Part shown: positions 20,893-41,583 of the stretch, piece after piece
How positions within the stretch are numbered: position 1 is the first letter of the stretch
How the letters are laid out: the number at the start of each line of letters is the position of its first letter
Assembly: GCA_025465135.1 (NCBI GenBank)
Contig: JAODNA010000049.1
Location: forward strand, 44,507 to 108,506
Direction: 5' to 3'
DNA: 64,000 bases
DNA from: Frankiales bacterium
GTDB lineage: Bacteria > Actinomycetota > Actinomycetes > Mycobacteriales > SCTD01
Made by a program: the position numbers and the translations under genes
The notes under the pieces: generated by a model
Seen by the model: only the letters and a program-made list of their open reading frames with translations
The model's database searches: none
What the model was told of the DNA's origin: nothing

Positions 20893-20934
20893 GTTGGGCG
20901 TGGCTGCTGCACGCGGCGGCCGGAACGGGACGGT

Positions 20935-23082: not shown

Positions 23083-23095
23083 CTCCCACGCCTTC

Positions 23096-23446: not shown

Positions 23447-23502
23447 AGCGCACGCTGCGGCACAGGAGGTGGCGGGCAGGAGAGCTCGGCAGAACGCGCG
23501 AA

Positions 23503-24030: not shown

Positions 24031-24081
24031 GCGGCGCAGTATCCCCAGCGCAGCGCTATCCCTCGCTTCTGCCGTCTACTC

Positions 24082-24106
24082 AACCGATCGGGCGGCTCGC
24101 GCGTTT
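24082..24106 (+). promoter_or_regulatory. ECF-type promoter candidate for sigma-4 (AACC-N17-GTTT)
   Basis: The sequence is CTCAACC-gatcgggcggctcgcgc-GTTTGATGAG, with 8 nt before GTG 24115. It shares the 11-mer TTGATGAGGTG with the sigma-8 promoter/start region. Confidence 0.4.
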
Positions 24107-24114
24107 GATGAGGT

Positions 24115-24654: not shown

Positions 24655-25691
24655 CCGACACCGAGCTCATCGCGCGCTTCCGCCAGGCCTGCGAGGACGC
24701 CACCGACGCGGTGGAGGCACCGTCGCTGTTCGTCCCGGCGCGAGCTCGGCGTGCCCGGCGCACCCGGTGGGGAGCGCCGTTGGCGAGTGCGGTTCTCGCC
24801 GGCGGCGCCGCCTTGGGAGCGTTCATGCTCCAGCAGCAGCTCGGTGCGACGGCGCACCGATCTGACGCGACCGTGCAGTTCGCCGGGGTGTGCGACAGCC
24901 CGTACAACGTGCCGGCCCGCCCCGGCCACGTGATCGCGAAGGGGTTCCGGGTCGGCGACATCGTCGTTGCACCCGCCGGCGGCACTCCCGTCCCCTCCGA
25001 GGCGACGGTGCGGGCCCAGCTCCGGAAGGCAGATCTTCCGGTCGGCGCGCAACTGAGGTGGGCCTCGATCATCGAACCCGCCCTGTCCCCCACCGCCACG
25101 GACCACTGGCTCCTGACCAGCTGCGGGCAACCGGGCGCCTTCCTGCGGCCGACAGCCACGGACCCGTCGCCGATGTCTCGGATCTACCAGACCGCCACCT
25201 ACAGCGTCGTCGGTCCGACAGGGCAGCCCGGACAGCCGTTCACGGTCCAGCTGAACCAGCCGCAGTGCCCGCATCGCATCGGCACTGCCGGGGGACCCAG
25301 CAACGGGAAGCCAAGCTCAGCCCGCCTGGTGGACGGGCACGTGACCGCTGGTCTGTTCTGCCGCTACTACTCGGTCCTTCCGGGCCCCGGAAACAAGTAC
25401 CCCGGCACCGAGCACGGTGCCGCTGGGATCCCCCCGGATCTGGCTGCCGCGATGGCCAAGGCGATCAACGCACTTCCACCTGCCAGTGGGGTGGCCATGA
25501 GCTGTCCGAACGACATCGGCGTGACCGACGTCCTGTCCTTCCAGACCTCGAACGGACCGCAGCAGGTCTGGGTCTCGGCCACCGGCTGCAACGTCTTCAA
25601 GAACGGAGCCCGGGTCGCGATCGGGAGTGGGCCGGCGATGGCGACCTACCTCGAGCTCCGGGCTCGCCTCGTCCTGCCTAGCGTCCGGTGA
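24651..25691 (+). CDS. ECF cassette 4 partner P4: single-pass membrane protein
   Basis: ATGA overlap at 24651-24654. The N-terminus is MTDTELIARFRQACEDA...ARARRARRTRW followed by the TM GAPLASAVLAGGAALGAFML, then a Cys-containing ectodomain of about 285 aa. Confidence 0.8.
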   Translation: MTDTELIARFRQACEDATDAVEAPSLFVPARARRARRTRWGAPLASAVLAGGAALGAFMLQQQLGATAHRSDATVQFAGVCDSPYNVPARPGHVIAKGFRVGDIVVAPAGGTPVPSEATVRAQLRKADLPVGAQLRWASIIEPALSPTATDHWLLTSCGQPGAFLRPTATDPSPMSRIYQTATYSVVGPTGQPGQPFTVQLNQPQCPHRIGTAGGPSNGKPSSARLVDGHVTAGLFCRYYSVLPGPGNKYPGTEHGAAGIPPDLAAAMAKAINALPPASGVAMSCPNDIGVTDVLSFQTSNGPQQVWVSATGCNVFKNGARVAIGSGPAMATYLELRARLVLPSVR

Positions 25692-25713
25692 CGCAGCGGG
25701 CGCTCAGCCATCG

Positions 25714-27819: not shown

Positions 27820-28336
27820 GGCGCACCTCTTGGGCGTGATCAGGATCGGACAGGAGGCCGCTTTGCCGGAGCGCTTCGAGCGCCCGGTTGGCTCTGCTCT
27901 TGACCGTCCCCAGCGAGCAGTCGAGCGCGTCGGCGGTCTCGCGCTCGGAGAGCTGCTGGTAGTAGCGCAACACGACCACAGCCCGCTGCTGGTACGGCAG
28001 CGCGCGAAGAGCCCGAGCGAGGGCGTCCTGGGTCGCCATACGGTCGGCGTCGTCGGGCCCGGCAGCCTCCGGCAGCCGGGCGGTCGGCACCTCGCCGCTC
28101 CATCTGCGCTGCCCCCAGCGCGCCGCCAAGCGGACCATGATCATGCGCGTGTAGGCCTCCGCGGCTCCTTTGTCCGCAAGGCGGTCCCAGCGCATGGCGG
28201 TCTTGGTCAGCGCGGCCTGCACGAGGTCCTCCCCTGCTGCTGTATCCCCGACGAGCAGCGAGCCGGCGCGCACCAAGGCCGGGTAGCGGCCGCGCATGAA
28301 CTCCGCGAACTCGTCATCGGCCCGGTGCACCCTCAC
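27809..28336 (-). CDS. ECF sigma factor 5 (subfamily A)
   Basis: Region 2 is EFAEFMRGRYPALVRAGSLLVGDTAAGEDLVQAALTKTAMRWDRL. Region 4 is QQRAVVVLRYYQQLSERETADALDCSLGTVKSRANRALEALR. Confidence 0.9.
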   Translation of the reverse strand: MRVHRADDEFAEFMRGRYPALVRAGSLLVGDTAAGEDLVQAALTKTAMRWDRLADKGAAEAYTRMIMVRLAARWGQRRWSGEVPTARLPEAAGPDDADRMATQDALARALRALPYQQRAVVVLRYYQQLSERETADALDCSLGTVKSRANRALEALRQSGLLSDPDHAQEVRHDA

Positions 28337-28355
28337 CTCGCTCTCACTCTCTAGG

Positions 28356-28378
28356 AGACATCAGCGGCCGGGAAGGTT
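28356..28378 (-). promoter_or_regulatory. ECF-type promoter candidate for sigma-5 (GGAACC-N15-GTCT)
   Basis: The reverse strand reads CGGAACC-ttcccggccgctgat-GTCTCC. A 19-nt purine-rich leader precedes GTG 28336. Confidence 0.45.
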
Positions 28379-28382
28379 CCGT

Positions 28383-28411
28383 GCGCTCGCCTACGTCGGG
28401 TTGGCGAGCGC
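28383..28411 (-). terminator. Hairpin (9-bp GC-rich stem, 11-nt loop) between cassette 6 and the sigma-5 promoter
   Basis: GCGCTCGCC (28383-28391) pairs with GGCGAGCGC (28403-28411). It abuts the sigma-5 -35 element and there is no U-tract. It is a possible insulator or terminator for the sigma-6/P6 transcript. Confidence 0.3.
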
Positions 28412-28596
28412 GAAGCCAAGGCGGGCCAGCGAGACCGGGACGGGAGTGCTCGTGGGTAATGGCACCACCGTCGGTCCCTCGGTGACCAGCAAGAGCTCCG
28501 CGGGCAGGAAGTCCAGCGAGTCGTTGGTCGACGTCTGTGGTCGCCTGCGGACGATGCGCCAGCCGCGCGAGCTCTTCGGCGCCGCGGCGCCGGGCC

Positions 28597-29379
28597 CTAG
28601 CCGCGTCCGGTGACGAGGCCGGTCTCCAACACCTGGACGTTCGCCAATGCATCGAGGCAGGAGAAGACGCGCTGCTGTTGGGCTTGGGTTCCCGTGACGG
28701 TGACGCCGCGGGTGAGACGGTCGTTGGGCTCCTGCCCCGTTGCCCGAGCTCCGGGCAAGGAGAGGCAGTGCCTGAATGCCTCGTGTCGAGCCGGGGCGTC
28801 GGGGTCGACGCCCCGCTCATAGGCCGCGACGAAGTGGACTCGCACGCCGACGCCGAACACCGCCGCTACCAGTTGGGGAGTGACTTGGCGGTAGGTCAGG
28901 GTGCGATTGTTGCGGATGAAACCGCAGCCGGTGTTCACGTTGAAGACCTCAGTCGCGAGGCTGGCAGAGCGCACCGTGATGTCCGCATTGCGATACGGCC
29001 CCGGATTCTGGCAGGGCCAGGTCCTCTCCACCGGGATCGCCGGACTGTCGTTGGCGGCAGCCAGAAAGGCGGCCAGCCGAGGCTTGGTCAGGTCCTCGCA
29101 AGTCGTGGGGCTTCCGGCGCGACACACGGTCGCGCTCGTTGCTCGTTCGCTCACGAACGGCTGAGACACGACGCCCGGCTGCGAGGAGTCACCTCCCGTC
29201 GGCAAGGCGAGGTACAGCGCCGCTCCGGACGCGACCAAGAGGAATCCCGCCGTCCCGGTCATGGCCACACGACGGCGACGGCGCCTGTCAGCGGCTCGTT
29301 CGAGGACGGAGAACGGCGGGGCGGGCAGGCTGCGTACCGGTGCAGCGAGCTCGTTGAGCAGCGTGGACAGGTCGGTCAT
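28597..29379 (-). CDS. ECF cassette 6 partner P6: single-pass membrane protein with Cys-rich ectodomain
   Basis: Lies in ORF 28597..29925. ATG 29379 forms an ATGA overlap with the sigma-6 stop. The N-terminus is MTDLSTLLNELAAPVRS...AADRRRRRRV followed by the TM AMTGTAGFLLVASGAALYLAL. Confidence 0.8.
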   Translation of the reverse strand: MTDLSTLLNELAAPVRSLPAPPFSVLERAADRRRRRRVAMTGTAGFLLVASGAALYLALPTGGDSSQPGVVSQPFVSERATSATVCRAGSPTTCEDLTKPRLAAFLAAANDSPAIPVERTWPCQNPGPYRNADITVRSASLATEVFNVNTGCGFIRNNRTLTYRQVTPQLVAAVFGVGVRVHFVAAYERGVDPDAPARHEAFRHCLSLPGARATGQEPNDRLTRGVTVTGTQAQQQRVFSCLDALANVQVLETGLVTGRG

Positions 29380-29897
29380 GGTTGCTCCTCCGTCAACAGC
29401 GGTGCGAGCGCGGCTCTCGCTCTGTTCAGCCGGGATTTCACGGTGCCCATAGGAACTCTGAGCTCCTGAGCGACCCTTTCCAGCGGCAGACCGACCAGGT
29501 GGTGCAGCACCACCACTTGTCGCTGAGCCACGGGCAGCGCTGCGAGAGCGCGGGCGACGTCCATCGCCAACAGCGACGGCTCGGGGCTCGTTGTCGCCCC
29601 CTCTATGCGCCCCAACGCGGCGCGGGCCCGCCGGAGCTGTCGAAATCGGTTGCTCAGCAGGCGAAAGGCCACCTGCCGCACCCATGCTTCGGGGTCCTGA
29701 TATCGAGAGATGGCCTGCCAGCGCGGCACCAGCCGGATGAAGGCCTCCTGCACGACCTCTTCCGCCTCGCGGTGGTCGCCGGCGGCGACGGTAAGAACGG
29801 CCAGCAACCGCGAGTAGGTAGCCGCGTAGAAGTCGGCAAGCGCCGTGTGGGACGCCTCCGACTCCGGTGGCGCGGTCGCGTCCTGCTTCACGATCAC
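29376..29897 (-). CDS. ECF sigma factor 6 (subfamily B)
   Basis: Region 2 is ADFYAATYSRLLAVLTVAAGDHREAEEVVQEAFIRLVPRWQAI...DPEAWVRQVAFRLL. Region 4 is QRQVVVLHHLVGLPLERVAQELRVPMGTVKSRLNRARAAL. Confidence 0.9.
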   Translation of the reverse strand: MIVKQDATAPPESEASHTALADFYAATYSRLLAVLTVAAGDHREAEEVVQEAFIRLVPRWQAISRYQDPEAWVRQVAFRLLSNRFRQLRRARAALGRIEGATTSPEPSLLAMDVARALAALPVAQRQVVVLHHLVGLPLERVAQELRVPMGTVKSRLNRARAALAPLLTEEQP

Positions 29898-31717: not shown

Positions 31718-32287
31718 TCACCTTCGCCCGGCGTCCAGGGCTGTCGTCAGACTCCGATATGTGGCCGCGATATCGCTCTCCCGCGTCTGGACCGACAGGG
31801 CATCCGGTCTTTCCGCACGGACGGCCTCGATGCGGTCATGCATCTCGGCAAGCGCGTTCGCTCCGCCGATGGTGCGAACGGCTTCGGCATGATGCTCGGC
31901 CCAGCGAGGGTCGTCCTTACGCGCCTCGAACCGAGCGAGGGCGACCTGGCGGTCGTCTGTCAGGTAGACCTCGAAGAACTGTCCACCAGCCGATGCGGCG
32001 GCCTGGGCAAGCTCGTCGATGAACGCCGGCCGCGCGACGTACTGGGGCACGACGACGTCATGGCCGCTGTCGAGGTGCGTACGGACCATCGCCAGGGCCA
32101 TGGCTCTCGCCAGCAGTCCTGATTCCTCCTGACGGAGCTCCCATCCGCCTATCAGGCGACGCAAGCCGTCGATGTCCAGGCAGAAGGCCAGCGGTCTGTC
32201 TTTGACGTAACGCCGTGCGAGCGTGGACTTGCCGATCCCGGGAGGTCCATTGAGCAGGATCACGCGTGGCCCTGGATGGCTGTCCAT
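31718..32287 (-). CDS. P-loop NTPase/kinase (AAA_33-like)
   Basis: The Walker A is LLNGPPGIGKSTLARRY. At about 190 aa it has a small-molecule/nucleotide kinase-like size. The substrate is unknown. Confidence 0.8.
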   Translation of the reverse strand: MDSHPGPRVILLNGPPGIGKSTLARRYVKDRPLAFCLDIDGLRRLIGGWELRQEESGLLARAMALAMVRTHLDSGHDVVVPQYVARPAFIDELAQAAASAGGQFFEVYLTDDRQVALARFEARKDDPRWAEHHAEAVRTIGGANALAEMHDRIEAVRAERPDALSVQTRESDIAATYRSLTTALDAGRR

Positions 32288-32347
32288 CGCCCGAGGTTAG
32301 GGCTGGTGCTCCATACCGTTCGGACGGTGCCGGGCGGCCGTGGGTCG

Positions 32348-33247
32348 CTAGAAGGGCCCGTTCACGACGAGCAGCCGGATGTCCTCCGGCGACGTGGTCA
32401 AGGCGACGCCTGCGTTGAGCTGCGCGGCCGTGTTCGTCGTTCCCCAGACGTCTCCGGCGAGCGCCCAGATGGTTGACCGCGAGGCGGCCGCGCCCGAAAT
32501 GACCGTGGAGCCGGGGGCGCAGCCGAGGCCGACCGGCCTGGTTCCGCCTGTCAGCTGGGCGCTCCCTTGGCCGGTCTGAGCGGTCGAGAGGGATTGGCAG
32601 GGCACGGCCGCGACCGCGAGGCTGCCCCCCGACCCGCCCGCTGCGGTGGCGTGCGTGAAGTGCTCGATGGTCTGCGAGTTGCTCGAGACGTAGAGGTCGG
32701 CGACGTCGGCGGCCCGCAGCAGCTGCAGCCGTCGATGGATCAGGCCGCCGTGCCACCCGCTGCCGCGCGCTGGCCGGCTGACCTGAGTGAGCCGGTCGTC
32801 GGCGACCAGGCCGATCACGAGTCGCCGGGCATCTGTCCTCGAGGCGGGAATGGTCACGTCAACGAAGACCAGGTTGCCGGCCCGGCTCTCGCAGACTGTC
32901 TCAGGCTGGACGGGCAGGGTCGTGCATCCTGCTGGGGATCCGGTGGCGTTGGTCTGTGGCGCGAAGACGCCAGCCGGTTGTACGACGAGGTCTGGGCGTT
33001 CGATCGGTTGCCCCGCCCGGTCGAGCACCCAGAACGCCACCGGAGCTGTCGAGTAGCCGGCTGTCCCGACCTGGATGTGCAGCACGAGCGGGCCATCCGC
33101 AGTTCCAGCCAAGCGGCTGAACGAGTACACCCGGGAAACCGTATGTATCCGAGCGGCATCTGAGGACGGCGACGCCGTCGCGGGACCTGCTGCGAGGCAG
33201 CAACATGCTGCGACAACGGCTAGGGTCGCCCGCGACCAAACCCCCAT
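32348..33247 (-). CDS. Secreted hypothetical protein
   Basis: Lies in ORF 32348..33328. ATG 33247 gives the signal peptide MGVWSRATLAVVAACCCLAAGPATA. No known motif. Confidence 0.65.
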   Translation of the reverse strand: MGVWSRATLAVVAACCCLAAGPATASPSSDAARIHTVSRVYSFSRLAGTADGPLVLHIQVGTAGYSTAPVAFWVLDRAGQPIERPDLVVQPAGVFAPQTNATGSPAGCTTLPVQPETVCESRAGNLVFVDVTIPASRTDARRLVIGLVADDRLTQVSRPARGSGWHGGLIHRRLQLLRAADVADLYVSSNSQTIEHFTHATAAGGSGGSLAVAAVPCQSLSTAQTGQGSAQLTGGTRPVGLGCAPGSTVISGAAASRSTIWALAGDVWGTTNTAAQLNAGVALTTSPEDIRLLVVNGPF

Positions 33248-33506
33248 GACCCATACGGTTCGACACCCGGCACGCCGTTCCTGCCTCAACTCCGACAGCG
33301 GCCCGCGTCGCCCGGACAGGGCACCCATTCAGTGCCACGTCATGAACGGGTCGAGCAGCGGCTCCCGTCATCGCCTGGGCTCATGATGTTCGGCGGTTCC
33401 ACGGCGGCCACCTGAGTCGGAGCATCCGCCGTCGTCCAGGCCCGGCATCCGCGCAGGTAGTCATCTCGGGCGGTGGGATCGACGAACAAAGCACCGACGA
33501 CAAGGA

Positions 33507-33800
33507 TCACCCAACCCAAGCTACGTCGGACCAAGCACCAACGAACGGCACCTCCAGGCGGTGCTTGGACACCCAACGGAAGGCAACCGCGCAATACGCC
33601 ATGAGGACGACCGACAGCACCACGATCGACACGACCGCCGACGTGATGATGCTCAGAGGAAGCATCAGCGGCCCGAGCAGAACCAGAAGCCAGGCGTACT
33701 TCATCCACACCGGAGGCTCGATGTCGTGTGGCCGCTGGAACCGCTTGCCGTACGTCTCAGCCCGACGGTCCAGACCGCGAAGCCGTTGCGCTACACGCAT
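33507..33800 (-). CDS. Small hypothetical two-TM membrane protein
   Basis: Hydrophobic segments are YAWLLVLLGPLMLPLSIITSAVVSIVVLSVVLMAYCAVAF. Third-position G/C bias looks coding by eye. No domain. Confidence 0.45.
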   Translation of the reverse strand: MRVAQRLRGLDRRAETYGKRFQRPHDIEPPVWMKYAWLLVLLGPLMLPLSIITSAVVSIVVLSVVLMAYCAVAFRWVSKHRLEVPFVGAWSDVAWVG

Positions 33801-33932
33801 GCAGTCAGTCTCGGATCTGCGATGCCGCCTGACAAGGAAGGTAGGAGTGGCACCTAGCGTTCTGACGGTGCGGCGGCAAAGACCGGGTCTTCGGAGGCCA
33901 ACCGTTCGGCCGTGAGGTGCATGTCGGAACCG

Positions 33933-34463
33933 TCAGCTGTCGGGAAGTCGTGACCATATCTCGGTGTCCTCGCGTAGATCCTGCTTGAAGTGCCTCGACC
34001 GGAGCACACCCTCACGCACATAACCGCATCGCTGCGCGACCCGCTGCGACGCGGCATTGTCGACGCTGATGTAGAGCTCGATCCTCAACGCTCCCAAGAC
34101 GGAGAGCGCCCAGTCTGTGAGTTGGCTCAGGGCGGCCGTGGCGACACCCTGACCGCGCGCCTCAGGCGCGACGAGGTAACCGAGTTCGACGGTCCTTGTT
34201 GAAGAGTTGATATCAGGAGCGAGAGCGACGCCCAGGAACTCGTCGCACTCGCCCGCGATCGCAAACGCCTCGCGCGTTCCGTCGACTCGTCCGCCTTGGT
34301 AACTCTGTAGCCACGCGCGCTCGAAGCCATCCGGCACGGGCACCGGAACCCTCGAGAAGCGCAGGACGTGCTCATCGGCCAGCATCGCCCGCAACGAGGC
34401 CAGGTGCTGTTCGCCGAACAACACCAGCCCGAGCTGCGGCCGTTGCGGCGGTGCCGTTGTCAT
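33933..34463 (-). CDS. GNAT family N-acetyltransferase
   Basis: Lies in ORF 33933..34529, starting at ATG 34463. The core is ELGYLVAPEARGQGVATAALSQLTDWAL...ALRIELYISVDNAASQRVAQRCGYVREG. Confidence 0.85.
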   Translation of the reverse strand: MTTAPPQRPQLGLVLFGEQHLASLRAMLADEHVLRFSRVPVPVPDGFERAWLQSYQGGRVDGTREAFAIAGECDEFLGVALAPDINSSTRTVELGYLVAPEARGQGVATAALSQLTDWALSVLGALRIELYISVDNAASQRVAQRCGYVREGVLRSRHFKQDLREDTEIWSRLPDS

Positions 34464-34844
34464 GACGCGAGTATGCCGAAAGAGTCGGGGTCCGCTGGGA
34501 GGCGAGTCTCCAACTGGATCATCGGGCACGGCACCTACTTGCGGCGGAGCGAGCCGAGCCTGCGGCGAGTCGCGTCACCAGCGCCACGCGCCATCCATCG
34601 CCGACAGGGATGCCTCTGGGACTGGGCGGGCTTGGGAAGCCACGTTGTTTCGGCAGGCGAAGCAGTCATCCATCAACCGATGGCTAAGCCGGGTGCCGTC
34701 GTGAACCGCCACTTCGTTCGCCGTGGCCAGGGGTGCCATGCGTGGCAGATCGGTGGTTCTCCGTGCCACGACGCGGTGAGGGTGTCATGAAGCGCACAGA
34801 GCCGCGCCCCGGATGGCGCCTCGGGATGACCATGGAGGGAAAGC

Positions 34845-35000
34845 GTGGCGGACCGGCACGCGCTGCTGCTGATGTTCACGGGCGTGGCGGTCGCGGGTGC
34901 CGCGTTCTTGTTACTCAGCCTGGCATTGGCTGTGGCTACTCGGGGACTCGCCGGTGGGGCAGTAGTCGTTTCAGTAGCTATGGGAGGTCTGGCCTCGTGA
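34845..35000 (+). CDS. Candidate 51-aa two-helix membrane peptide (not in ORF track)
   Basis: GTG 34845 lies 4 nt after GGAGGG. The translation is VADRHALLLMFTGVAVAGAAFLLLSLALAVATRGLAGGAVVVSVAMGGLAS*. Codons such as TTA, GTA, GTT and TCA are atypical for this genome, so this is a weak call. Confidence 0.25.
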   Translation: MADRHALLLMFTGVAVAGAAFLLLSLALAVATRGLAGGAVVVSVAMGGLAS

Positions 35001-35103
35001 CACGCCGTGGTCGTCATCAATCCGCGCTGGCAGACCGGGTCGGGCACCGACGCCAGACTGCCCGGACATAAAGCTCGGCAGTCGCCTCTCGATATGCCTT
35101 GGG

Positions 35104-35610
35104 TCAGCAGCGGGTGGCCGCCTTGTCCACTTCTTGGCTGCCCGCCTGTAGGTGCACCTGAAGTCGTTGTCGGGCCCGGTGGATGCGTACTCGCACAGTG
35201 CCCGGGCTCCTGCCGAGGACAGTCGCGATCTCCGCGGGCGTGAGCTGGTCGTAGACCATGAGCTCGATGAGCTCACGGTCGCTCGGCGACAGCTTGCTGA
35301 GTAGTTCGCTGACGTGCAGGTCGTCGAGCGAAGGCTCGTATTGCTCCACCACCTGCTCTCGTAGGCGTTCAGCGAGGGAGTTCTGCACCTGCTTACCCCG
35401 GCGGTGTGCCGCGAGCACTTTTCGGGCGACCCCGAAGAGCCAGAGGCGTGGGTTGTCGTGGGACACCCCACGGTGCCGCCAGGCCACGACGAAGACGTCA
35501 GACAGCAGATCCGCTGCATCCGCTGGCTGCTGGACTCGTCGCAAGAAGTAGCGCAGCACATCATCTCGGTTAGCTTCGTACAGCTGGGCGAACGGCTCGT
35601 CGTCGGTCAC
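35104..35610 (-). CDS. ECF sigma factor 7 (distinct subfamily)
   Basis: Lies in ORF 35104..35820. GTG 35610 forms a GTGA overlap with the stop of P7. Region 2 is FAQLYEANRDDVLRYFLRRV...AADLLSDVFVVAWRHR. Region 4 is SDRELIELMVYDQLTPAEIATVLGRSPGTVRVRIHRARQRL. Confidence 0.85.
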   Translation of the reverse strand: MTDDEPFAQLYEANRDDVLRYFLRRVQQPADAADLLSDVFVVAWRHRGVSHDNPRLWLFGVARKVLAAHRRGKQVQNSLAERLREQVVEQYEPSLDDLHVSELLSKLSPSDRELIELMVYDQLTPAEIATVLGRSPGTVRVRIHRARQRLQVHLQAGSQEVDKAATRC

Positions 35611-36266
35611 GAGGCCGGCCACGGCCGGGGGTCGGGGCAGTTGATGTCGACGTATTGCTGCAGCGGCGCGGGGTCGCCCTGCTGGGCTTGTTCGACCAGC
35701 CGGAGGTTGTAGGAGCGCAGGTTGATCCGGCGAGCGAGGTCTGAGTCCGCCAAGCGCCTCATGTGCTCGAGCGCGCCGGGGTCGGTCGTCGACGTCCGCG
35801 CCCACGAGCAGAAGGCCCACGACAGCCCCGAGCCCCGGACGCCGGTGACCTGCATGACGTAGCCGCGACCGCGCAGCTCAGGGGCGGTATCGGCGTCCAT
35901 GCGACGAGGGTCGAGTAGCCCCAGGTACATCTGCGCGGAGTAGCCCGGCGCATAGTCGAAACCCGACGTGTAGCGCAGGGCGACGTCCCGGAAGTCGGGA
36001 GCATTGAGGTCTAGGTATTCGCTCGTGTCGTTCTCGGTCGCGCCCGGCAGGCCGAACAGACCGGTGTGGCTGCCGCCGGTCGCTACCGCTACGCCGCCAA
36101 TGCCCATGACAGCCGCGCTGACCGCGCCGATGGCGACGAAACGACGGCGGCGGCTCGACGCAGGGCGGATCTGCCTCACGGCAGCGAGGAGTCCCTCGTA
36201 GCCCTCCTCGCAGCTCAGCTCGACGGGACTCAGGCGGGCACGGAGCTCGTCCACTACATCGGTCAT
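35607..36266 (-). CDS. ECF cassette 7 partner P7: single-pass membrane protein, encoded UPSTREAM of its sigma
   Basis: The N-terminus is MTDVVDELRARLSPVEL...PASSRRRRF followed by the TM VAIGAVSAAVMGIGGVAVA, then an ectodomain of about 155 aa. Confidence 0.75.
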   Translation of the reverse strand: MTDVVDELRARLSPVELSCEEGYEGLLAAVRQIRPASSRRRRFVAIGAVSAAVMGIGGVAVATGGSHTGLFGLPGATENDTSEYLDLNAPDFRDVALRYTSGFDYAPGYSAQMYLGLLDPRRMDADTAPELRGRGYVMQVTGVRGSGLSWAFCSWARTSTTDPGALEHMRRLADSDLARRINLRSYNLRLVEQAQQGDPAPLQQYVDINCPDPRPWPAS

Positions 36267-36449
36267 GCCCCTACCTGTCTGCAGGACGGCGCATCGTTAC
36301 ATCGCATTGACATCCTTTTACGAGGACGCTTCGGTCCAGCGCGAGGCGCACGCTCCGGCGCTACCGACGCGGATGGCAGCGCCCCGTCTGAAGCGCAGCT
36401 GCCTGACACCTGTGTAGACCGCCGCTCTGCCGAGCGCCAGGATTGACTG

Positions 36450-36773
36450 ATGCGCAGGGGGCTGGTGTCGCTTGGTGTGGCCCTCGGGCTGAGCCTCGGC
36501 ACTGCGGCGCTCTTGCTCGTCCCTAGCCGCGTGCACGTGGCGAGCAGCACGATGCCCCAACTGGTGGGGCAGACCCAGGTGCAGACGGCCCCGGCCCAGA
36601 CACTCGACTGCGGCTCGGTTATCAGCCCTGGACCACAGTGGAGCTCAGAAGGAGGCACCTGTCAGGCAGTGATCAGCGGGCGGCGATCGGATGCGCTGGC
36701 CGTCGGCGTCCTTGCCTCGTTGGCCGTCACTACGGCCGCGATCCGGCTCGCTGTACCCGGACGACGACGCTAG
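36450..36773 (+). CDS. Small hypothetical protein with N- and C-terminal hydrophobic segments
   Basis: The N-terminus is MRRGLVSLGVALGLSLGTAALLLV and the C-terminus is ALAVGVLASLAVTTAAIRLAVPGRRR. No domain. Confidence 0.45.
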   Translation: MRRGLVSLGVALGLSLGTAALLLVPSRVHVASSTMPQLVGQTQVQTAPAQTLDCGSVISPGPQWSSEGGTCQAVISGRRSDALAVGVLASLAVTTAAIRLAVPGRRR

Positions 36774-36831
36774 TCGCGCGCTTCCGGGAGAACGGCTCGA
36801 TGCGACTCGCCGACAACCGGCGCTGCAGTTG

Positions 36832-37491
36832 CTAGCTCGACCTCACGCAGTTCCGTGCACCGATGGTCGTCGTGGCGCCAGGCTGCTGCGTGCGGTCGAC
36901 GGTCGTCCCTGCGTACAACCCGGTGCTCTGGGTCGCAAGAGTCCCCACCCCCGTCACGGTATCCACGCTGATCTTGCTGATCTTGTCTCCCGCGCGTGTG
37001 TGCCCGATGAGATCCCGCGGCAGCACGATACGCACTTCGTTGGTGGTCGGATCGAACTCACCAGTCACCGGGATCGTGGCGGTGAAGCCGGGGGCGGCCT
37101 GCTTCTCCGCGAAGTCTCCGGCAACCCAGAACTGAAGCCCGTCGATCGCCCTGGCCGCGGTGGCCGCGAACCCCCCGCCGCGAAAGGTGAAGTAAACGAC
37201 CCATTGGTCGAGCCGGGGACCGGCATCGACGGCTGTTCCCAGCCCGGCTACCCGCACGACGAGGGTGAGGTTCCGGGCCCCGGACGCAACGTCCGCCGAC
37301 AGAACGTCGAGGGCAGGGTCGTTCGGCGTCGCAGACGGCACCCTGCTGGACAGAGAAGCGTCACCCGCGGGGTCGGTAACGAGTCGACAGGGCACGACGC
37401 CAGCAGGCGCTGCCGTCGCGCTTCCCGCCATGAGCAGGCCAGCCGTTACTGCCGCAGCCGGCGCGACGCGCAACAGCTTGGTCCACCGCAC
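36832..37491 (-). CDS. Secreted hypothetical protein
   Basis: Lies in ORF 36832..37629. GTG 37491 gives VRWTKLLRVAPAAAVTAGLLMAGSATAAPA (signal peptide). The body is beta-rich. Confidence 0.65.
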   Translation of the reverse strand: MRWTKLLRVAPAAAVTAGLLMAGSATAAPAGVVPCRLVTDPAGDASLSSRVPSATPNDPALDVLSADVASGARNLTLVVRVAGLGTAVDAGPRLDQWVVYFTFRGGGFAATAARAIDGLQFWVAGDFAEKQAAPGFTATIPVTGEFDPTTNEVRIVLPRDLIGHTRAGDKISKISVDTVTGVGTLATQSTGLYAGTTVDRTQQPGATTTIGARNCVRSS

Positions 37492-37677
37492 GGCCGTCCC
37501 CCCGGGTACGCAGTCGGATAGCGATTCGACAGCGGATCGGCGAATCCTGCACCGGCCGTTCGTGCCGCTCGGCGGGAGGCAGCCTCGACTTGCTGGGCGC
37601 CGGGCAGACTTCTGCTCGGACCGGTGCATACAGCGGAGAGGGCGCGACGGAGGGTGCCGCGGTTGGCTCGTCCGCGA

Positions 37678-37956
37678 TTAGCGGCCGAGCTGGGTAGGCG
37701 AGCACTCGCCCTCCTCCCCACGTACAGATCCGCTCCCGCTGGAAGGACCTTGGTCGTGCCATTCGGACCAGGCCGCCGCAGCCGCCATGGAGCTGACCGC
37801 AGCTGCGCTCGCGACGTCCGATGCATCGAAGAAGTGCACGCCGAGCAGGTGCTCGTTGATGACGATCAACAGCGACCCAACGAACGCATAGATCGGGACC
37901 GGCCAAGGCAGCGCAAACAAGATGGCCGAGGTACAGCGGCGTCTCCGTTCCTCCAC
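37678..37956 (-). CDS. Possible small membrane protein
   Basis: 92-aa ORF with one hydrophobic segment (AILFALPWPVPIYAFVGSLLIVI). Third-position G/C is high by eye and the stop is TAA. It sits in an otherwise unexplained 550-bp divergent gap. Confidence 0.3.
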   Translation of the reverse strand: MEERRRRCTSAILFALPWPVPIYAFVGSLLIVINEHLLGVHFFDASDVASAAAVSSMAAAAAWSEWHDQGPSSGSGSVRGEEGECSPTQLGR

Positions 37957-38043
37957 GGATGCAAGGACGCGGGGCTTGCCAGGTCGGTTCCGTGGGTGGA
38001 ACTACTCAGGTCCGCATGGCCCGGTCGCATCACGATTGCGGAC

Positions 38044-38520: not shown

Positions 38521-38545
38521 CGCGGACACAGCGGTCGTGTCCGCG
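38521..38545 (+). promoter_or_regulatory. Perfect 9-bp inverted repeat (7-nt spacer) at the arr start region
   Basis: CGCGGACAC-agcggtc-GTGTCCGCG. The right arm begins with the longest-ORF GTG (38537). It lies 22 nt upstream of the alternative GTG 38567. Confidence 0.35.
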
Positions 38546-39040
38546 GCGCGTGCGACGATCCTCTTCGTGCCAGACGACTTCGATCCGCCGCCGCCCGCGA
38601 CACTGGCAGACCACGGCCATGTGGGTGGGCCGTTCCTCCACGGCACCAAGGTCCCCTTCGCGCCTGGCGAGCTCGTTCTGCCCAGGCGACCCTCGCACTT
38701 CCGTCCCGCCCGCCCGCTGGAGCACGTCTACTTCACGACGCGAAGCGAGACAGCCGTTTGGGGTGCAGAGCTCGCAGCCGCGCTCGCCCCCGACGGCGTG
38801 GACGGGGTTTCGATGCCCCGCATCTACAAGGTCGAGCCGCTCGGCCCGTTCGAGGACGACCCGAACGTCACGGACCGCCGGTTCCCCGGAAACCCGACCC
38901 GGTCCTACAGATCCCGCGAGCCACTCCGCGTCCTCGCTGAGGTCTCGGAGTGGACCGGGCACACCGACGACGAACTACAGCGGATGCTCACGTCGCTGGC
39001 CGGGCTGCGCGCTCAGGGCCTGGACCTCGTCCAGGACTAG
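38537..39040 (+). CDS. arr: NAD(+)-rifampin ADP-ribosyltransferase (Arr)
   Basis: Near-colinear with my recollection of M. smegmatis Arr. Matching stretches are GPFLHGTK, HVYFT, AVWGAELAA, YKVEPLGPFEDDPNVTDRRFPGNPTRSYRSREPLRV and LAGLRAQGL. The start is GTG 38537 or, closer to Arr-ms length, GTG 38567. Confidence 0.92.
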   Translation: MSAARATILFVPDDFDPPPPATLADHGHVGGPFLHGTKVPFAPGELVLPRRPSHFRPARPLEHVYFTTRSETAVWGAELAAALAPDGVDGVSMPRIYKVEPLGPFEDDPNVTDRRFPGNPTRSYRSREPLRVLAEVSEWTGHTDDELQRMLTSLAGLRAQGLDLVQD

Positions 39041-39259
39041 GCCACGAGCAGTCCTCTGGCAGCTCGTCAGGGTCGCTTTCGTGCTCCTGTTCGTAGTACA
39101 AGGCTCCATGCCATCAAACGCCATGACTACTTGATGGTCACTTCGATGGCGGTCGGGACTGCTGCCTTGATTTGGTCCGGCGTTCTGTCCGCGAGGTCCA
39201 GGCTCCGCCGCGGGTAGGTGCCTCGCAGCTCCCCCGGCACTCGAGAACGATACGGACGG

Positions 39260-39282
39260 AACCAACCGGCCCTCTGTGGTGT
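39260..39282 (+). promoter_or_regulatory. ECF-type promoter candidate for sigma-8 (GGAACC-N15-GTGT)
   Basis: The sequence is CGGAACC-aaccggccctctgtg-GTGTCTTGATGAG, followed by GTG 39292 (9 nt after GTGT). Confidence 0.45.
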
Positions 39283-39291
39283 CTTGATGAG

Positions 39292-39783
39292 GTGCCGATC
39301 GCCTTCGAGGAGTACGTCGCTGCGCGCTTCCCGGCGCTGCGACGGCTCGCCTATCTGCTGACCGGTGACTGGACCGAGGCAGAGGACCTCGTCCAGGACG
39401 CGCTCGTGCGCTGCGAGCGACGCTGGTCCGGGATCGCCACTGACGACCCGCACGCCTACGTGCGGCGTTCGGTGGTGAACGGTGCTGCGAACTGGCGGCG
39501 ACGCCGACGGATCGAGCTTCCACTCGACGAGGGCGGCGCCGTTGCTGACCACACGCCCGCCACGGATGAGCGTCTGGTCCTGCTGGAGGCACTGCGGCGC
39601 CTGCCTGTCGACCAGCGCCAGGTCCTCGCTCTGCGCTTCTTCGAGCAACTCAGCGAAGCCGAGACCGCCCATGCGCTCGACATCGCGCCGGGCACGGTCA
39701 AGAGCCGTACTTCTCGCGGCTTGGCGGCGCTGCGGGAGGCCGGTCTCACGGCCGGGTCGAAACGGATGGAGATCACGTCATGA
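39292..39783 (+). CDS. ECF sigma factor 8 (subfamily A)
   Basis: Lies in ORF 39172..39783. GTG 39292 gives VPIAFEEYVAARFPALRRLAYLLTGDWTEAEDLVQDALVRCERRWSGI...DPHAYVRRSVVN. Region 4 is DQRQVLALRFFEQLSEAETAHALDIAPGTVKSRTSRGLAALR. Confidence 0.9.
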   Translation: MPIAFEEYVAARFPALRRLAYLLTGDWTEAEDLVQDALVRCERRWSGIATDDPHAYVRRSVVNGAANWRRRRRIELPLDEGGAVADHTPATDERLVLLEALRRLPVDQRQVLALRFFEQLSEAETAHALDIAPGTVKSRTSRGLAALREAGLTAGSKRMEITS

Positions 39784-41450
39784 CCGATCTTGAGCAGCTG
39801 TTCCAGGACTCCGTCGCGCTGGCCGAGCAGGGCCACTCGTCGCCTGGGGATCCTCTCGGGCGGCTGACTGCGGCCCGATCCGCGTACCGGCGTCGTCGAT
39901 GGGGGGCGGTCGCAATCCCGGCCGCTGCCGCGGCAGTCGCCGCAGTCATGATCCTGCCGTCGGTGCTCACCCCAGGCGGTGGTGGCGGAGCCGTCGTCGC
40001 GGCCGGCGACGGCCCGACCCCGTCGGCGTTCGTGGCGCTGGTCGCCGGCCGGGCTGGTCTGTTCAATGCGACTGACGGCACGCGAGTACTGGACTTCGGG
40101 TCGGCTACAGCAGTCTCCACCGACCCGCTCGGGGTGTACGTCGGGGCCGGCGCCGGGTGCTCGTCCGTCCTGCGCTTCTTCCACGCCGGGCAGTCGTCGT
40201 TCCTCGACGGTGAAGGACCTATCGGCGGCCACATGAGTGCGCTGGCCATCTCGCCGGGGGGGCGGACCCTTGCCTACACGCTGGGCCACCGCCCTGACGC
40301 CGAGCCGGGCGTGCCGTGCGGAAGCCCCGACCTGGTACTGCGCGACGGCCCTACCGGTGCAGTGCGCCGGTGGACCGGCGAGGTGGGCAGCGGGGAGATA
40401 TCGCAGCTGTCGTGGTCCGCCGACGGCAAGCACCTCGCCTTCCAGACCAGCGTGTGCTGCGACGCCAGCACCACGCTGCACGTGCTCGCGACAGACGCGG
40501 CTCCAACCCCGGTGACCCAGGTGCCCGCTGCGCTCCACGGGCGGCAGACGTGCCAGTTCACGCTGCCGGTGTACTCGGGCAACCAGCTGCTTGCGGTCCG
40601 TCAGTGCGACGGCGGCGCCGACCTGGTCCGGATCGGGCTCGACGGCGCGGTCAGCCTCGAGCGAAAGCTGCCAGCAGGCAGCCCCATCGCTCTCTCGGCC
40701 GCCGGCGGGGCACTGCTGCTCTCTGAGTACGGCACGCCGGAGACACCGGGCAAGCTCCTACGGCTGGACGCCGACGGCACCGCGACTGTCCTCGGCACTG
40801 GCTTCTCGCAGCCCAGCTGGGCCGTGCCCGGATCGACGCAGGCGTCACCCACGGCGTCCGCCGCGGCAACGGCCGCGCCGCAGGAAAGCGCTGCGGCAAC
40901 GAGCTGCGTCTACCGCCCTTCACCGAAGGACGCGGTCGGCCCGGCCGTCGGACTTCCCGCGGCGGAGCCCCGCAACCTACCTGCCAGCGCGACCATCCAC
41001 ACCAGCCGCGGCGACATCACCGTGGACTTCAGGCCGGAGCGCACCCAGGCGCCCTGCACGGTGAACAGCTTTGCGCACCTGGCCACGAGCAAGTTCTACG
41101 ACGGCACCCGCTGCCATCGCCTGACCACCGCGGGCATCTACGTCCTGCAGTGCGGCGACCCGTCCGGCACCGGTAGCGGTGGTCCCGGCTACACGTTCGC
41201 CGACGAGCACCTGCCGGGCACGACGTACCCGACGGGCACGGTGGCGATGGCCAACGCGGGCCCCGACTCGAACGGCAGCCAGTTCTTCCTCGTCTACAAG
41301 ACCAGCCAGCTCGGCCCGGACTACACCGTCTTCGGACACATCACGGCCGGACTCGACGTCCTGACGGGTGTTGCCGCTGGCGGCGCGCTTCCCCCCAACG
41401 ACGGAGCACCGAAGCTGCCGGTTCGGATCGTGAACGTCGCCCTCGGCTGA
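39780..41450 (+). CDS. ECF cassette 8 partner P8: single-pass membrane protein with PD40-like beta-propeller region and C-terminal cyclophilin-type PPIase
   Basis: ATGA overlap at 39780-39783. The N-terminus is MTDLEQLFQDSVALAEQG...SAYRRRRW followed by the TM GAVAIPAAAAAVAAVMILPSV. PD40-like motifs are ISPGGRTLAY and WSADGKHLAF. The cyclophilin stretch is APCTVNSFAHLA..FYDGTRCHR...LQCGDPSGTGSGGPGYTFADE...GTVAMANAGPDSNGSQFFLVY...YTVFGHI. Confidence 0.9.
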   Translation: MTDLEQLFQDSVALAEQGHSSPGDPLGRLTAARSAYRRRRWGAVAIPAAAAAVAAVMILPSVLTPGGGGGAVVAAGDGPTPSAFVALVAGRAGLFNATDGTRVLDFGSATAVSTDPLGVYVGAGAGCSSVLRFFHAGQSSFLDGEGPIGGHMSALAISPGGRTLAYTLGHRPDAEPGVPCGSPDLVLRDGPTGAVRRWTGEVGSGEISQLSWSADGKHLAFQTSVCCDASTTLHVLATDAAPTPVTQVPAALHGRQTCQFTLPVYSGNQLLAVRQCDGGADLVRIGLDGAVSLERKLPAGSPIALSAAGGALLLSEYGTPETPGKLLRLDADGTATVLGTGFSQPSWAVPGSTQASPTASAAATAAPQESAAATSCVYRPSPKDAVGPAVGLPAAEPRNLPASATIHTSRGDITVDFRPERTQAPCTVNSFAHLATSKFYDGTRCHRLTTAGIYVLQCGDPSGTGSGGPGYTFADEHLPGTTYPTGTVAMANAGPDSNGSQFFLVYKTSQLGPDYTVFGHITAGLDVLTGVAAGGALPPNDGAPKLPVRIVNVALG

Positions 41451-41510
41451 ACGCAGCCCCTGATCTGGTGAGGAAGCGGATCCTCGGGCAGGGAAGAGGT
41501 GGCTAGGGTG

Positions 41511-41583
41511 CTCCCCCGTCTGGACTTGAACCAGAAACCCTGCGATTAACAGTCGCATGCTCTGCCAATTGAGCTACGGGGGA
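41511..41583 (-). tRNA. tRNA-Asn (anticodon GTT)
   Basis: The reverse strand reads TCCCCCG-TA-GCTC-AATTGGCA-GAGC-A-TGCGA-CTGTTAA-TCGCA-GGGTT-TCTGG-TTCAAGT-CCAGA-CGGGGGA-G. This is a full cloverleaf with a 7-bp acceptor stem and anticodon loop CT-GTT-AA. CCA is not encoded. Confidence 0.93.

What the first reader, a model, noticed from the sequence alone, without database searches (positions are those of the whole stretch)
39780..41450. Sigma-coupled membrane protein ending in a cyclophilin-type peptidyl-prolyl isomerase
P8 has four parts. First is the short MTD/poly-Arg head and a TM. Second is a region of about 300 aa with PD40/TolB-like motifs (ISPGGRTLAY, WSADGKHLAF). Third is an Ala/Ser/Thr linker. 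Fourth is a complete cyclophilin domain (...APCTVNSFAHLA..FYDGTRCHR..LQCGDPSGTGSGGPGYTFADE..VAMANAGPDSNGSQFFLVY..YTVFGHI).

Its gene overlaps the stop of sigma-8 by ATGA. An extracytoplasmic foldase tethered to what looks like an anti-sigma chassis suggests a sensor that reads unfolded or proline-containing exported clients. It could equally be a sigma-controlled periplasmic chaperone. I am not aware of a described ECF partner with this architecture, but this is from memory and unverified.
Basis: partly seen in the sequence, partly recalled or inferred. Interest (0 to 1): 0.62.

Follow-up and report, generated by a model that had tools for sequence, protein, structure and literature searches.

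The report
Sigma-coupled membrane-anchored propeller–cyclophilin protein
Directly behind an alternative sigma factor gene, this uncultured soil actinobacterium encodes a single-pass membrane protein whose outer part carries a TolB-like propeller and an intact cyclophilin folding enzyme; it is most likely a rare, undescribed type of anti-sigma factor that links gene control to protein folding outside the cell.

Summary
Window 39780-41450(+) is one uninterrupted 556-aa gene with five regions:
- a conserved 40-aa cytoplasmic head;
- one TM helix after RRRR;
- a six-bladed TolB-like propeller;
- an Ala/Ser/Thr/Pro linker;
- a cyclophilin domain (PF00160, 92 bits) with every catalytic residue invariant in 14 homologues.

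Its ATG overlaps the stop of a SigE-family ECF sigma gene (ATGA). That 4-bp overlap recurs in all 9 related loci examined, while the other neighbours differ.

A conserved ECF-type promoter (GGAACC-N17-GTCTTG, then GTG 5 nt later) sits in front of the sigma gene in the window and in 7/7 orthologous loci. This implies a leaderless, autoregulated two-gene operon.

Sigma coupling follows the head, not the ectodomain. Relatives carry the propeller only, the cyclophilin only (apparently lost twice), or the propeller plus another domain, and all sit behind a sigma gene. Stand-alone exported cyclophilins do not. The same exported cyclophilin type is also fused to Ser/Thr kinases, a caspase-like domain and a zinc ribbon.

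Best reading: an anti-sigma factor with a catalytically competent foldase ectodomain. Anti-sigma function and the signal are inferred, because the head matches no known anti-sigma domain. I found no description in the literature. It is a new variant of a known kind.

The parts
39258..39286 (+). ECF-type promoter: -35 GGAACC (39258-39263) and -10 GTCTTG (39281-39286). The sigma GTG start follows 5 nt after the -10, so the mRNA is probably leaderless.
   Evidence: This block is conserved at the DNA level while its flanks are not, in five aligned loci. The pattern occurs exactly once per locus, at the same position, in 7/7 orthologous loci. It is absent from L005, L006 and L008. In the window, 0.03 matches are expected by chance.
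39292..39783 (+). ECF sigma factor gene of the SigE family, 163 aa from GTG 39292. The longest ORF begins at 39172.
   Evidence: It matches TIGR02983 at 162.7 bits against a cut-off of 141.55, and PF04542 plus PF08281. The start was set from the alignment of orthologues and the conserved GTG. Orthologues in the related loci are 75-80% identical.
39780..41450 (+). P8 gene, 556 aa plus stop. Its ATG overlaps the sigma TGA (ATGA).
   Evidence: Full-length homologues are P0002-P0014.
39780..39899 (+). Cytoplasmic head, residues 1-40: a short amphipathic helix (3-16), a Pro-rich turn, then a basic helix ending in RRRR. This is the putative sigma-binding segment.
   Evidence: Invariant residues are T2, L4, E5, L7, F8, A15, E16, R33 and R37-39. 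Pairwise identity is 66%. Helices are predicted at 3-16 and from residue 25, but with low pLDDT. The partners of the other sigma genes in the window share the same head template.
39900..39968 (+). Single transmembrane helix, residues about 41-63, Ala-rich with invariant Pro47. The N-terminus faces the cytoplasm.
   Evidence: The Kyte-Doolittle maximum is 2.2 at residues 41-63. Four Arg residues lie immediately before the helix. No strict Tat consensus was found in any of the 14 members.
40026..40823 (+). Extracytoplasmic six-bladed TolB/PD40-like beta-propeller, residues 83-348, with five invariant Cys (127, 180, 226, 227, 276) and one nearly invariant Cys (258).
   Evidence: The AF2 model has pLDDT about 85-92 here. 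Foldseek matches TolB at E about 1e-10. PD40 is sub-threshold here and above threshold in relatives.
40824..40904 (+). Ala/Ser/Thr/Pro-rich flexible linker, residues 349-375.
   Evidence: pLDDT is below 50. Identity between homologues is 28% and the length varies.
40905..41447 (+). Exported-type cyclophilin domain with its conserved pre-segment (residues 376-556). The Pfam match covers 405-553, which is 40992-41438.
   Evidence: PF00160 scores 92.2 bits, with PDB matches. Catalytic positions R447, F/Y454, Q457, N492, Q501, F503, L511 and Y515 are conserved in all 14 members. Four Cys (376, 426, 445, 458) are shared with other exported actinobacterial cyclophilins.
39147..39176 (+). Terminator-like hairpin between the upstream arr gene and the sigma promoter. 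It marks the left boundary of the operon.
41510..41583 (-). Convergent tRNA-Asn gene. It marks the right boundary of the operon.

Best explanation
The locus is a self-contained, autoregulated two-gene module. It consists of a SigE-family ECF sigma factor (39292-39783) and, translationally coupled to it, a single-pass membrane protein, P8.

Shown:
- P8 has a 40-aa cytoplasmic head, one TM helix, a TolB-like six-bladed propeller, a flexible linker and a cyclophilin domain. All catalytic residues of the cyclophilin are conserved.
- The topology places the propeller and the cyclophilin outside the membrane.
- The sigma-P8 pairing and a conserved ECF-type promoter in front of the sigma gene recur in every orthologous locus.

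Inferred:
- The conserved head holds the sigma factor at the membrane, which is anti-sigma function.
- The ectodomain is an active, membrane-tethered prolyl isomerase. The propeller acts as a client-binding platform, in the way the WD40 domain does in PPWD1/CYP71.
- When the ectodomain is occupied, most plausibly by unfolded proline-containing exported proteins, the anti-sigma factor is inactivated or degraded and sigma is released.
- Sigma then transcribes its own operon from the GGAACC...GTCTTG promoter.
- Because sigma and P8 are made together, induction raises the amount of foldase at the membrane and also re-supplies the inhibitor. The result is a self-limiting 'foldase on demand' loop.

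The signal and the release mechanism are the weakest steps.
For: - Single gene and domain content.
- Active site intact in all 14 members.
- Topology, with RRRR before the only TM helix, extracytoplasmic Cys that are invariant or (C258) nearly so, and a cyclophilin type shared with lipoprotein and TM-anchored relatives.
- Sigma directly upstream with a 4-bp overlap in 9/9 related loci while all other neighbours differ.
- Coupling follows the head. Propeller-only (P0123), cyclophilin-only (P0121, P0152) and full-length forms are all sigma-coupled. Exported cyclophilins without the head are not (L005, L006).
- The head is as conserved as the enzyme domain (0.66 against 0.70), while the TM helix and linkers are not.
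- The same head template occurs on the partners of the paralogous sigma genes in the window.
- Promoter conserved in the window and in 7/7 orthologous loci, once per locus, 5 nt before the GTG start.
- The operon is bounded by a terminator-like hairpin and a convergent tRNA gene.
- The cyclophilin is retained while the propeller was apparently lost twice.
- The same cyclophilin type is fused to other transmembrane signalling heads, namely Ser/Thr kinases, a caspase-like domain and a zinc ribbon.
Against: - The head has no detectable similarity to any described anti-sigma domain in Pfam, NCBIfam or the PDB.
- At about 40 aa the head is shorter than a class I anti-sigma domain, and AF2 models it with low confidence (pLDDT 44-61).
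- No target of the sigma factor other than its own operon was seen.
- Nothing identifies the signal.
- The closest relatives of the cyclophilin domain are ordinary exported foldases, so the enzyme could be cargo rather than a sensor.
- The family is tiny and comes only from metagenomes or MAGs, so there is no experimental handle yet.
Confidence: 0.55

Rival explanations
1. P8 is only an effector: a sigma-dependent, membrane-anchored extracytoplasmic foldase comparable to PpiD, PrsA or mycobacterial PpiB. It is co-transcribed with the sigma factor but does not regulate it. The sigma factor is controlled in some other way, for example by transcription alone.
For: The catalytic residues are fully conserved. 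The nearest relatives of the cyclophilin domain are stand-alone exported PPIases with no sigma neighbour. Mycobacterial PpiB is a known membrane or secreted foldase. The head matches no known anti-sigma domain.
Against: A plain membrane anchor does not need an invariant cytoplasmic T2-L4-E5-L7-F8...A15-E16 motif. That motif is as conserved as the enzyme domain. The same head template sits on the partners of the other sigma genes in the window, which carry unrelated ectodomains. The 4-bp coupling is kept whichever ectodomain is present.
Confidence: 0.2
2. The head plus hydrophobic segment is a long cleavable signal peptide (Sec or Tat). The mature product would then be a soluble, secreted propeller-cyclophilin protein, and the closeness to the sigma gene would reflect co-regulation only.
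For: An Arg run precedes the hydrophobic segment. In Cellulomonas fimi an exported cyclophilin has an experimentally determined leader, which the review gives as 53 aa in its text and 51 aa in a figure legend (PMC12757957).
Against: None of the 14 members has the strict Tat consensus. By eye, the printed sequences show no conserved small-x-small cleavage motif after the hydrophobic stretch (VP[ST]xL, then Gly- or charge-rich). This was not scored. The hydrophobic stretch is about 21 residues long and strongly hydrophobic. Signal-peptide n-regions are not normally invariant. Cleavage would also be compatible with the main model, as a site-1 step like that of RsiV.
Confidence: 0.1
3. The propeller is the real sensor, as in the cyclophilin-less relatives, and the cyclophilin is an accessory or passenger domain with no part in signalling.
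For: A broader set of head-TM-propeller proteins without cyclophilin exists. One of them, P0123, was checked and is sigma-coupled. P0122 carries a different C-terminal domain.
Against: Within the orthologous sigma group the cyclophilin is the constant part. The propeller-less forms P0121 and P0152 keep the same head, the same sigma (about 77% identity) and the same promoter, and they nest inside the full-length family (bootstrap 77 for P0121, weak for P0152). The cyclophilin is the most conserved region of the protein.
Confidence: 0.15

Closest known systems
ECF sigma / single-pass anti-sigma pairs whose ectodomain is an enzyme-like sensor (for example Clostridium thermocellum SigI/RsgI with CBM/GH domains, Bacillus SigV/RsiV, which binds lysozyme, and E. 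coli RpoE/RseA, which senses unfolded OMPs). Comparison from established knowledge.
   Same: The sigma gene is followed by a co-transcribed, N-in single-pass membrane protein with a short cytoplasmic part and a large ectodomain. The promoter is autoregulated and of ECF type.
   Different: The head is only about 40 aa and matches no known anti-sigma domain. I found no anti-sigma factor with a PPIase or cyclophilin ectodomain in the literature. The link to folding stress is through a fused foldase, not through a PDZ protease as in DegS.
Actinobacterial exported cyclophilin PpiB (M. tuberculosis Rv2582, S. coelicolor SCO1510, C. fimi Celf_2022)
   Same: A cyclophilin domain sits outside the membrane, behind an N-terminal anchor or leader and a Ser/Thr/Pro-rich linker. 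Proteins with this layout, such as P0079 and P0061, are 54-58% identical to the P8 cyclophilin and share its four Cys.
   Different: Those proteins have no conserved head and no propeller. In the two loci examined (L005, L006) they have no sigma neighbour. Direct orthology to Rv2582 was not tested.
PPWD1 / Arabidopsis CYP71 (WD40 propeller plus C-terminal cyclophilin)
   Same: The order is the same: a beta-propeller followed by a cyclophilin. These are the top Foldseek matches over both domains (5yzg_2, E 5e-14). The cyclophilin sequences are among the best PDB matches (2a2n, 6lkb).
   Different: They are eukaryotic, nuclear and soluble. Their propeller is a WD40 propeller, not a TolB/PD40 type. 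The relative domain orientation is not comparable (rmsd above 20 A). The resemblance is convergent architecture, not homology of the whole protein.
TolB C-terminal beta-propeller
   Same: A six-bladed PD40-type propeller fold.
   Different: There is no TolB N-terminal domain, identity is 12-17%, and the organism is not diderm with a Tol-Pal system. The TIGR02800 match in relative P0123 is far below its cut-off.
E. coli PpiD / Bacillus PrsA (membrane-tethered extracytoplasmic PPIase chaperones). Comparison from established knowledge.
   Same: An N-terminal membrane tether and an extracytoplasmic chaperone-plus-PPIase layout. Expression is linked to envelope stress.
   Different: Those proteins use a parvulin domain rather than a cyclophilin. 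They are not encoded behind, or translationally coupled to, a sigma factor gene.

Membership tests
Cyclophilin-type PPIase (PF00160) | Match to the family HMM above the gathering score | tested here: met
   92.2 bits against a cut-off of 21.7, covering residues 405-553 and 155 of 159 profile positions.
Cyclophilin-type PPIase (PF00160) | Catalytic and substrate-binding residues (hCypA R55, F60, Q63, N102, Q111, F113, L122, H126) | tested here: met
   The equivalents are R447, Y/F454, Q457, N492, Q501, F503, L511 and Y515. Tyr at the H126 position also occurs in active E. coli PpiB. All are conserved in 14/14 members. The W121 position is missing, so weak cyclosporin binding is predicted; this is an inference.
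Cyclophilin-type PPIase (PF00160) | Cyclophilin beta-barrel fold | tested here: met
   Foldseek matches many cyclophilin structures with TM-score 0.7-0.8 normalised to the target and rmsd 3.2-3.8 A.
Cyclophilin-type PPIase (PF00160) | Prolyl cis-trans isomerase activity | not testable with these tools
   This needs an enzyme assay on residues 376-556.
ECF (group IV) sigma factor, SigE family (applies to the upstream gene) | Sigma-2 and sigma-4 regions only, with a family HMM above its cut-off | tested here: met
   PF04542 and PF08281 both match. TIGR02983 scores 162.7 bits against a cut-off of 141.55. No ECF group number was assigned.
ECF anti-sigma factor | Recognisable anti-sigma domain (zf-HC2/class I, RsdA, RskA, NepR/CnrY class II and others) | tested here: not met
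   Pfam and NCBIfam give no credible match to the head at E up to 1: only two sub-threshold chance matches (DUF4335, K_channel_TID) and weak sub-threshold CU044_5270 matches over the Arg-TM stretch. A PDB profile search gave only chance hits.
ECF anti-sigma factor | Encoded next to and co-transcribed with the sigma gene, with the pairing conserved across relatives | tested here: met
   An ATGA overlap is present here and in 9/9 related loci.
ECF anti-sigma factor | N-in single-pass topology with a conserved cytoplasmic segment | tested here: met
   There is one TM helix after RRRR. The head shows 66% pairwise identity with invariant positions.
ECF anti-sigma factor | Binds and inhibits its sigma factor | not testable with these tools
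TolB / PD40 beta-propeller | PD40 repeat HMM above the gathering score | tested here: inconclusive
   P8 scores 17.2 bits against a cut-off of 20.9. Relatives P0122 (31.7) and P0123 (24.1) pass.
TolB / PD40 beta-propeller | Six-bladed propeller fold | tested here: met
   The model has about 24 strands in six sets of four. Foldseek matches TolB at E 3e-10 over about 290 columns.
TolB protein proper | N-terminal alpha/beta domain and equivalog-level match (TIGR02800) | tested here: not met
   There is no such domain. TIGR02800 did not match P8, and scored only 16.8 bits against a cut-off of 343 in relative P0123.

The most novel reading that the evidence does not exclude
The cyclophilin ectodomain is itself a receptor. 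Occupancy of its proline-binding site would be transmitted through the single TM helix to release the ECF sigma factor. The ligand could be unfolded exported proteins or a cyclophilin-binding macrocycle from competing soil microbes (cyclosporin- or sanglifehrin-like). The same exported cyclophilin module would serve as a general extracytoplasmic sensor domain on Ser/Thr kinases, caspase-like proteins and zinc-ribbon proteins in Actinobacteria. That would make it a previously unrecognised class of bacterial sensor domain, and the sigma/P8 pair would be a self-limiting 'foldase on demand' circuit.
Probability: 0.25. Interest if true: 0.75.

Novelty: new variant of a known kind. Interest (0 to 1): 0.52.

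Why it matters
ECF sigma/anti-sigma pairs are a major route of bacterial transmembrane signalling, and for most of them the input is unknown. Here the ectodomain is a recognisable enzyme with a defined ligand class (Xaa-Pro peptides), and it has well-known inhibitors and point mutants. The input side is therefore unusually open to experiment.

If the cyclophilin is the sensor, this would be a direct link between extracytoplasmic prolyl folding and transcription in a monoderm actinobacterium. It would be a functional counterpart of the RseA/DegS unfolded-protein response built from different parts.

The same exported cyclophilin recurs on kinases, a caspase-like protein and a zinc-ribbon protein. 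This suggests a wider, unrecognised use of cyclophilin as a signalling module.

If P8 is only a tethered foldase, the locus is still a compact sigma/promoter/anti-sigma candidate set with a defined promoter.

Tried and rejected
- Two genes or a frameshift: rejected. The codon-position GC pattern is uniform, and full-length homologues exist.
- Failure of the cyclophilin HMM: rejected.
- Known anti-sigma domain in the head: Pfam and NCBIfam at permissive E-values and a PDB profile search of 22 aligned heads gave only chance hits.
- Foldseek against afdb50: the library was not available.
- Tat signal peptide: no member has the strict consensus.
- Literature on anti-sigma factors with cyclophilin or PPIase domains: three searches returned nothing relevant. 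One further search was rejected for its syntax. The supplements of the ECF reclassification paper are not held, and its text gave no group assignment that I could test.
- Genome collection scan with the head+propeller profile: a single MAG was found among 185,579 species, and the source organism of the window was not found.
- Search for further sigma targets with the promoter pattern: there is one extra full match, inside a paralogous partner gene (28664-28692, minus strand), and one related site in front of a paralogous sigma gene (28356-28380). There are no other targets in the fetched loci.
Full report
**1. The observation**

The window is high-GC (0.67-0.74), which fits an actinobacterial origin.

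The DNA at the junction reads GTCATGACC. The P8 ATG (39780-39782) therefore overlaps the TGA of the upstream gene (39781-39783).

Pfam finds a cyclophilin domain (PF00160) at residues 405-553, scoring 92.2 bits against a cut-off of 21.7. In the upstream protein it finds sigma-70 regions 2 and 4. NCBIfam places that protein in the SigE family, TIGR02983, at 162.7 bits against a cut-off of 141.55.

P8 has one strongly hydrophobic segment, residues 41-63, directly after RRRR. Third-position GC stays at 0.78-0.94 in one frame along the whole ORF, so there is no frameshift and no second gene.

**2. Anatomy**

An AlphaFold2 model built on 14 family sequences shows the following regions:
- a short helix at residues 3-16;
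- a long helix running into the TM segment;
- a confident all-beta domain at residues 83-348, with pLDDT about 85-92 and about 24 strands;
- a disordered linker at residues 349-375;
- the cyclophilin barrel.

Foldseek against the PDB matches the middle domain to TolB six-bladed propellers, with E 3e-10 to 1e-9, about 290 columns and rmsd 4.1-4.6 A. It matches the C-terminal domain to many cyclophilins. The best matches over both domains are PPWD1, a eukaryotic WD40-plus-cyclophilin protein.

The PD40 HMM is just below threshold in P8 and above threshold in relatives.

The catalytic and substrate-binding positions are R447, F/Y454, Q457, N492, Q501, F503, L511 and Y515. All are conserved in all 14 members. 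The W121 position is absent, which from established knowledge predicts poor cyclosporin binding.

Nine invariant and one nearly invariant (C258) cysteines lie in the ectodomain. Four of them (376, 426, 445, 458) are shared with other exported actinobacterial cyclophilins.

**3. The family and its context**

A search of 5.8 billion proteins found 13 full-length relatives (541-576 aa, 46-63% identity) and one 99% identical copy. All come from soil-type metagenomes or MAGs labelled Frankiales or Actinomycetota, and they are annotated only as peptidyl-prolyl isomerase.

Four of their contigs were fetched (L001-L004). In each, an orthologous sigma gene lies directly upstream with a 4-bp overlap, and all other neighbours differ.

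The next-closest cyclophilins are different:
- a Nocardioides lipoprotein with two tandem cyclophilin domains (L005);
- a Dactylosporangium TM-anchored cyclophilin (L006).

Neither has a sigma neighbour.

A profile of the head plus propeller, searched against 1.84 billion representatives, found three further kinds of relative:
- head-TM-propeller proteins that stop at the end of the propeller (P0123-P0134);
- one protein with a different C-terminal domain (P0122);
- a head-TM-cyclophilin protein with no propeller (P0152).

A second propeller-less form, P0121, had come from the word-based search.

P0123, P0152 and P0121 each sit behind a sigma gene with the same 4-bp overlap. So does the only hit among 185,579 species genomes, a MAG (L009).

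Sigma coupling therefore tracks the head, and the ectodomain is modular.

The sigma factors of all cyclophilin-bearing loci are 75-80% identical to the window's. The propeller-only locus has a 62% relative, and the closest paralogue in the window is 50% identical.

In a neighbour-joining tree of the cyclophilin domains, P0121 is sister to the window protein (bootstrap 77). P0152 nests among the full-length members, with weak support. This points to two separate losses of the propeller with the cyclophilin kept.

**4. Promoter and operon**

I aligned the DNA upstream of the sigma genes from five loci. The flanks are unalignable, but one block is conserved: GGAACCgAtC...TGTGGTGTCTTGAtGnnGTG.

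This block is a typical ECF promoter, with GGAAC at -35 and GTCTT at -10. It ends 5 nt before an invariant GTG that begins the conserved part of the protein. I therefore place the sigma start at 39292 (163 aa, as called in L003 and L009) and infer a leaderless transcript.

The pattern occurs once per locus, at this position, in 7/7 orthologous loci. It is absent from L005, L006 and L008. In the window, 0.03 matches are expected by chance.

A terminator-like hairpin (39147-39176) separates the operon from the upstream arr gene, and a convergent tRNA-Asn gene (41510-41583) closes it.

The module is thus a bounded, probably autoregulated two-gene unit.

**5. Is P8 an anti-sigma factor?**

Evidence for:
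- The pairing and the translational coupling are conserved.
- The topology is N-in and single-pass.
- The head is as conserved as the enzyme domain (0.66 against 0.70 pairwise identity; TM 0.45, propeller 0.51, linkers about 0.27). Its invariant residues, T2, L4, E5, L7, F8, A15 and E16, lie on a short, moderately amphipathic helix.
- The window holds eight SigE-type sigma genes. For seven of them I found an adjacent gene (downstream of six, upstream of the eighth at 35131-35523) encoding a protein with the same template: M-T-D-x-x-x-L, a Pro-rich turn, an Arg run and a TM helix, followed by an unrelated ectodomain.

Evidence against:
- The head matches no described anti-sigma domain in Pfam, NCBIfam or the PDB.
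- It is short, and AF2 models it with low confidence.
- I could not test binding.

I therefore file P8 as a putative anti-sigma factor by position, topology and conservation. I do not file it as a member of any known anti-sigma domain family.

**6. Mechanism**

Shown: the domain set, the outside location of an apparently active cyclophilin, the conserved coupling, and the conserved promoter.

Inferred:
- The head sequesters sigma.
- The propeller recruits clients for the cyclophilin.
- Occupancy of the ectodomain, most plausibly by unfolded Pro-containing exported proteins, inactivates P8.
- Released sigma transcribes its own operon.
- Because sigma and P8 are made together, foldase capacity rises and the system resets.

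The Ala-rich TM helix with invariant Pro47 would suit intramembrane proteolysis, but such helices are common in high-GC organisms, so this point is weak.

The same exported cyclophilin type, with its active site intact in the example I checked by eye (P0067), is fused to about 20 Ser/Thr kinases in Actinomadura and Spirillospora. Fusions to a caspase-like domain (P0109) and a zinc ribbon (P0061) also occur. This favours a signalling role for the domain over coincidence.

The rivals are scored separately in the report: effector only, cleaved signal peptide, and propeller as the sole sensor.

**7. Comparison with what is known, and novelty**

Functionally the module resembles ECF sigma/anti-sigma pairs with enzyme-like sensor ectodomains. 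It also resembles membrane-tethered foldases (PpiD, PrsA, mycobacterial PpiB; PMC12757957). In domain order it resembles PPWD1/CYP71.

I found no paper that describes an anti-sigma factor with a PPIase or cyclophilin ectodomain. The main text of the ECF reclassification paper does not mention an isomerase.

The family is very small and uncultured.

Verdict: this is a real feature and a new variant of a known kind. Interest is moderate, because the input domain is an enzyme with known ligands and mutants, which makes the signalling question directly testable.

Noticed in passing
window 17336-29897 and 35131-36266: The window holds eight paralogous SigE-type ECF sigma genes, at about 18238-18774(-), 20170-20649(-), 20806-21411(+), 24115-24654(+), 27809-28336(-), 29376-29897(-), 35131-35523(-) and 39292-39783(+). 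For seven of them, an adjacent gene (downstream of six, upstream of the 35131-35523 gene) encodes a protein with an 'MTD...RRRR-TM' head and a different ectodomain. One example is the 701-aa partner at 25714-27819, which has DUF4232 and BNR-like repeats. This density of sigma/partner modules is unusual.
   Followed up: partly
window 35607-36266(-) and 35131-35523(-): Here the head-TM protein (219 aa) lies upstream of its sigma-like gene rather than downstream. This is the reverse of the order in the other pairs.
   Followed up: no
window 38537-39040(+): A rifampin ADP-ribosyltransferase (Arr, PF12120, E 1e-36) is encoded immediately upstream of the sigma/P8 operon. A terminator-like hairpin at 39147-39176 separates the two.
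   Followed up: no
window 28356-28380(-) and 28664-28692(-): There are two more GGAACC...GTCT(T) promoter-like sites. One lies just upstream of the paralogous sigma gene 27809-28336, and the other lies inside the neighbouring partner gene. They suggest related promoter specificities, and possibly cross-talk, among the paralogous sigma factors.
   Followed up: partly
window 41510-41583(-): A tRNA-Asn (GTT) gene is convergent with P8.
   Followed up: no
proteins P0067, P0071, P0077, P0080, P0081, P0094, P0097-P0099, P0101, P0106, P0107, P0112, P0114, P0116-P0119: In Actinomadura and Spirillospora, Ser/Thr protein kinases carry the same exported cyclophilin type after a TM helix, in the order kinase-TM-cyclophilin. 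The catalytic residues appear intact in P0067, judged by eye. My one literature search aimed at this failed on syntax, so whether it is described is unchecked.
   Followed up: partly
proteins P0109, P0061, P0025: Other fusions of this cyclophilin type exist. They are a caspase-like Peptidase_C14 domain with TM and cyclophilin (P0109), a zinc ribbon with TM and cyclophilin (P0061), and a Nocardioides lipoprotein with two tandem cyclophilin domains (P0025).
   Followed up: no
protein P0122: This protein has the same head, TM helix and propeller. Its C-terminal domain of about 150 aa is not a cyclophilin and has no Pfam match. It is another ectodomain variant on the same chassis.
   Followed up: no
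window 40455-40460 (residues C226-C227) and relatives: An invariant vicinal Cys-Cys-Asp motif (VCCD) lies in the propeller. It is also conserved in the cyclophilin-less relatives. Vicinal cysteines are rare, and their role here (structural disulfides or redox sensing) is unknown.
   Followed up: no
window 32001-38000: GC content dips to 0.665-0.68 here, against 0.70-0.74 in the flanks.
   Followed up: no
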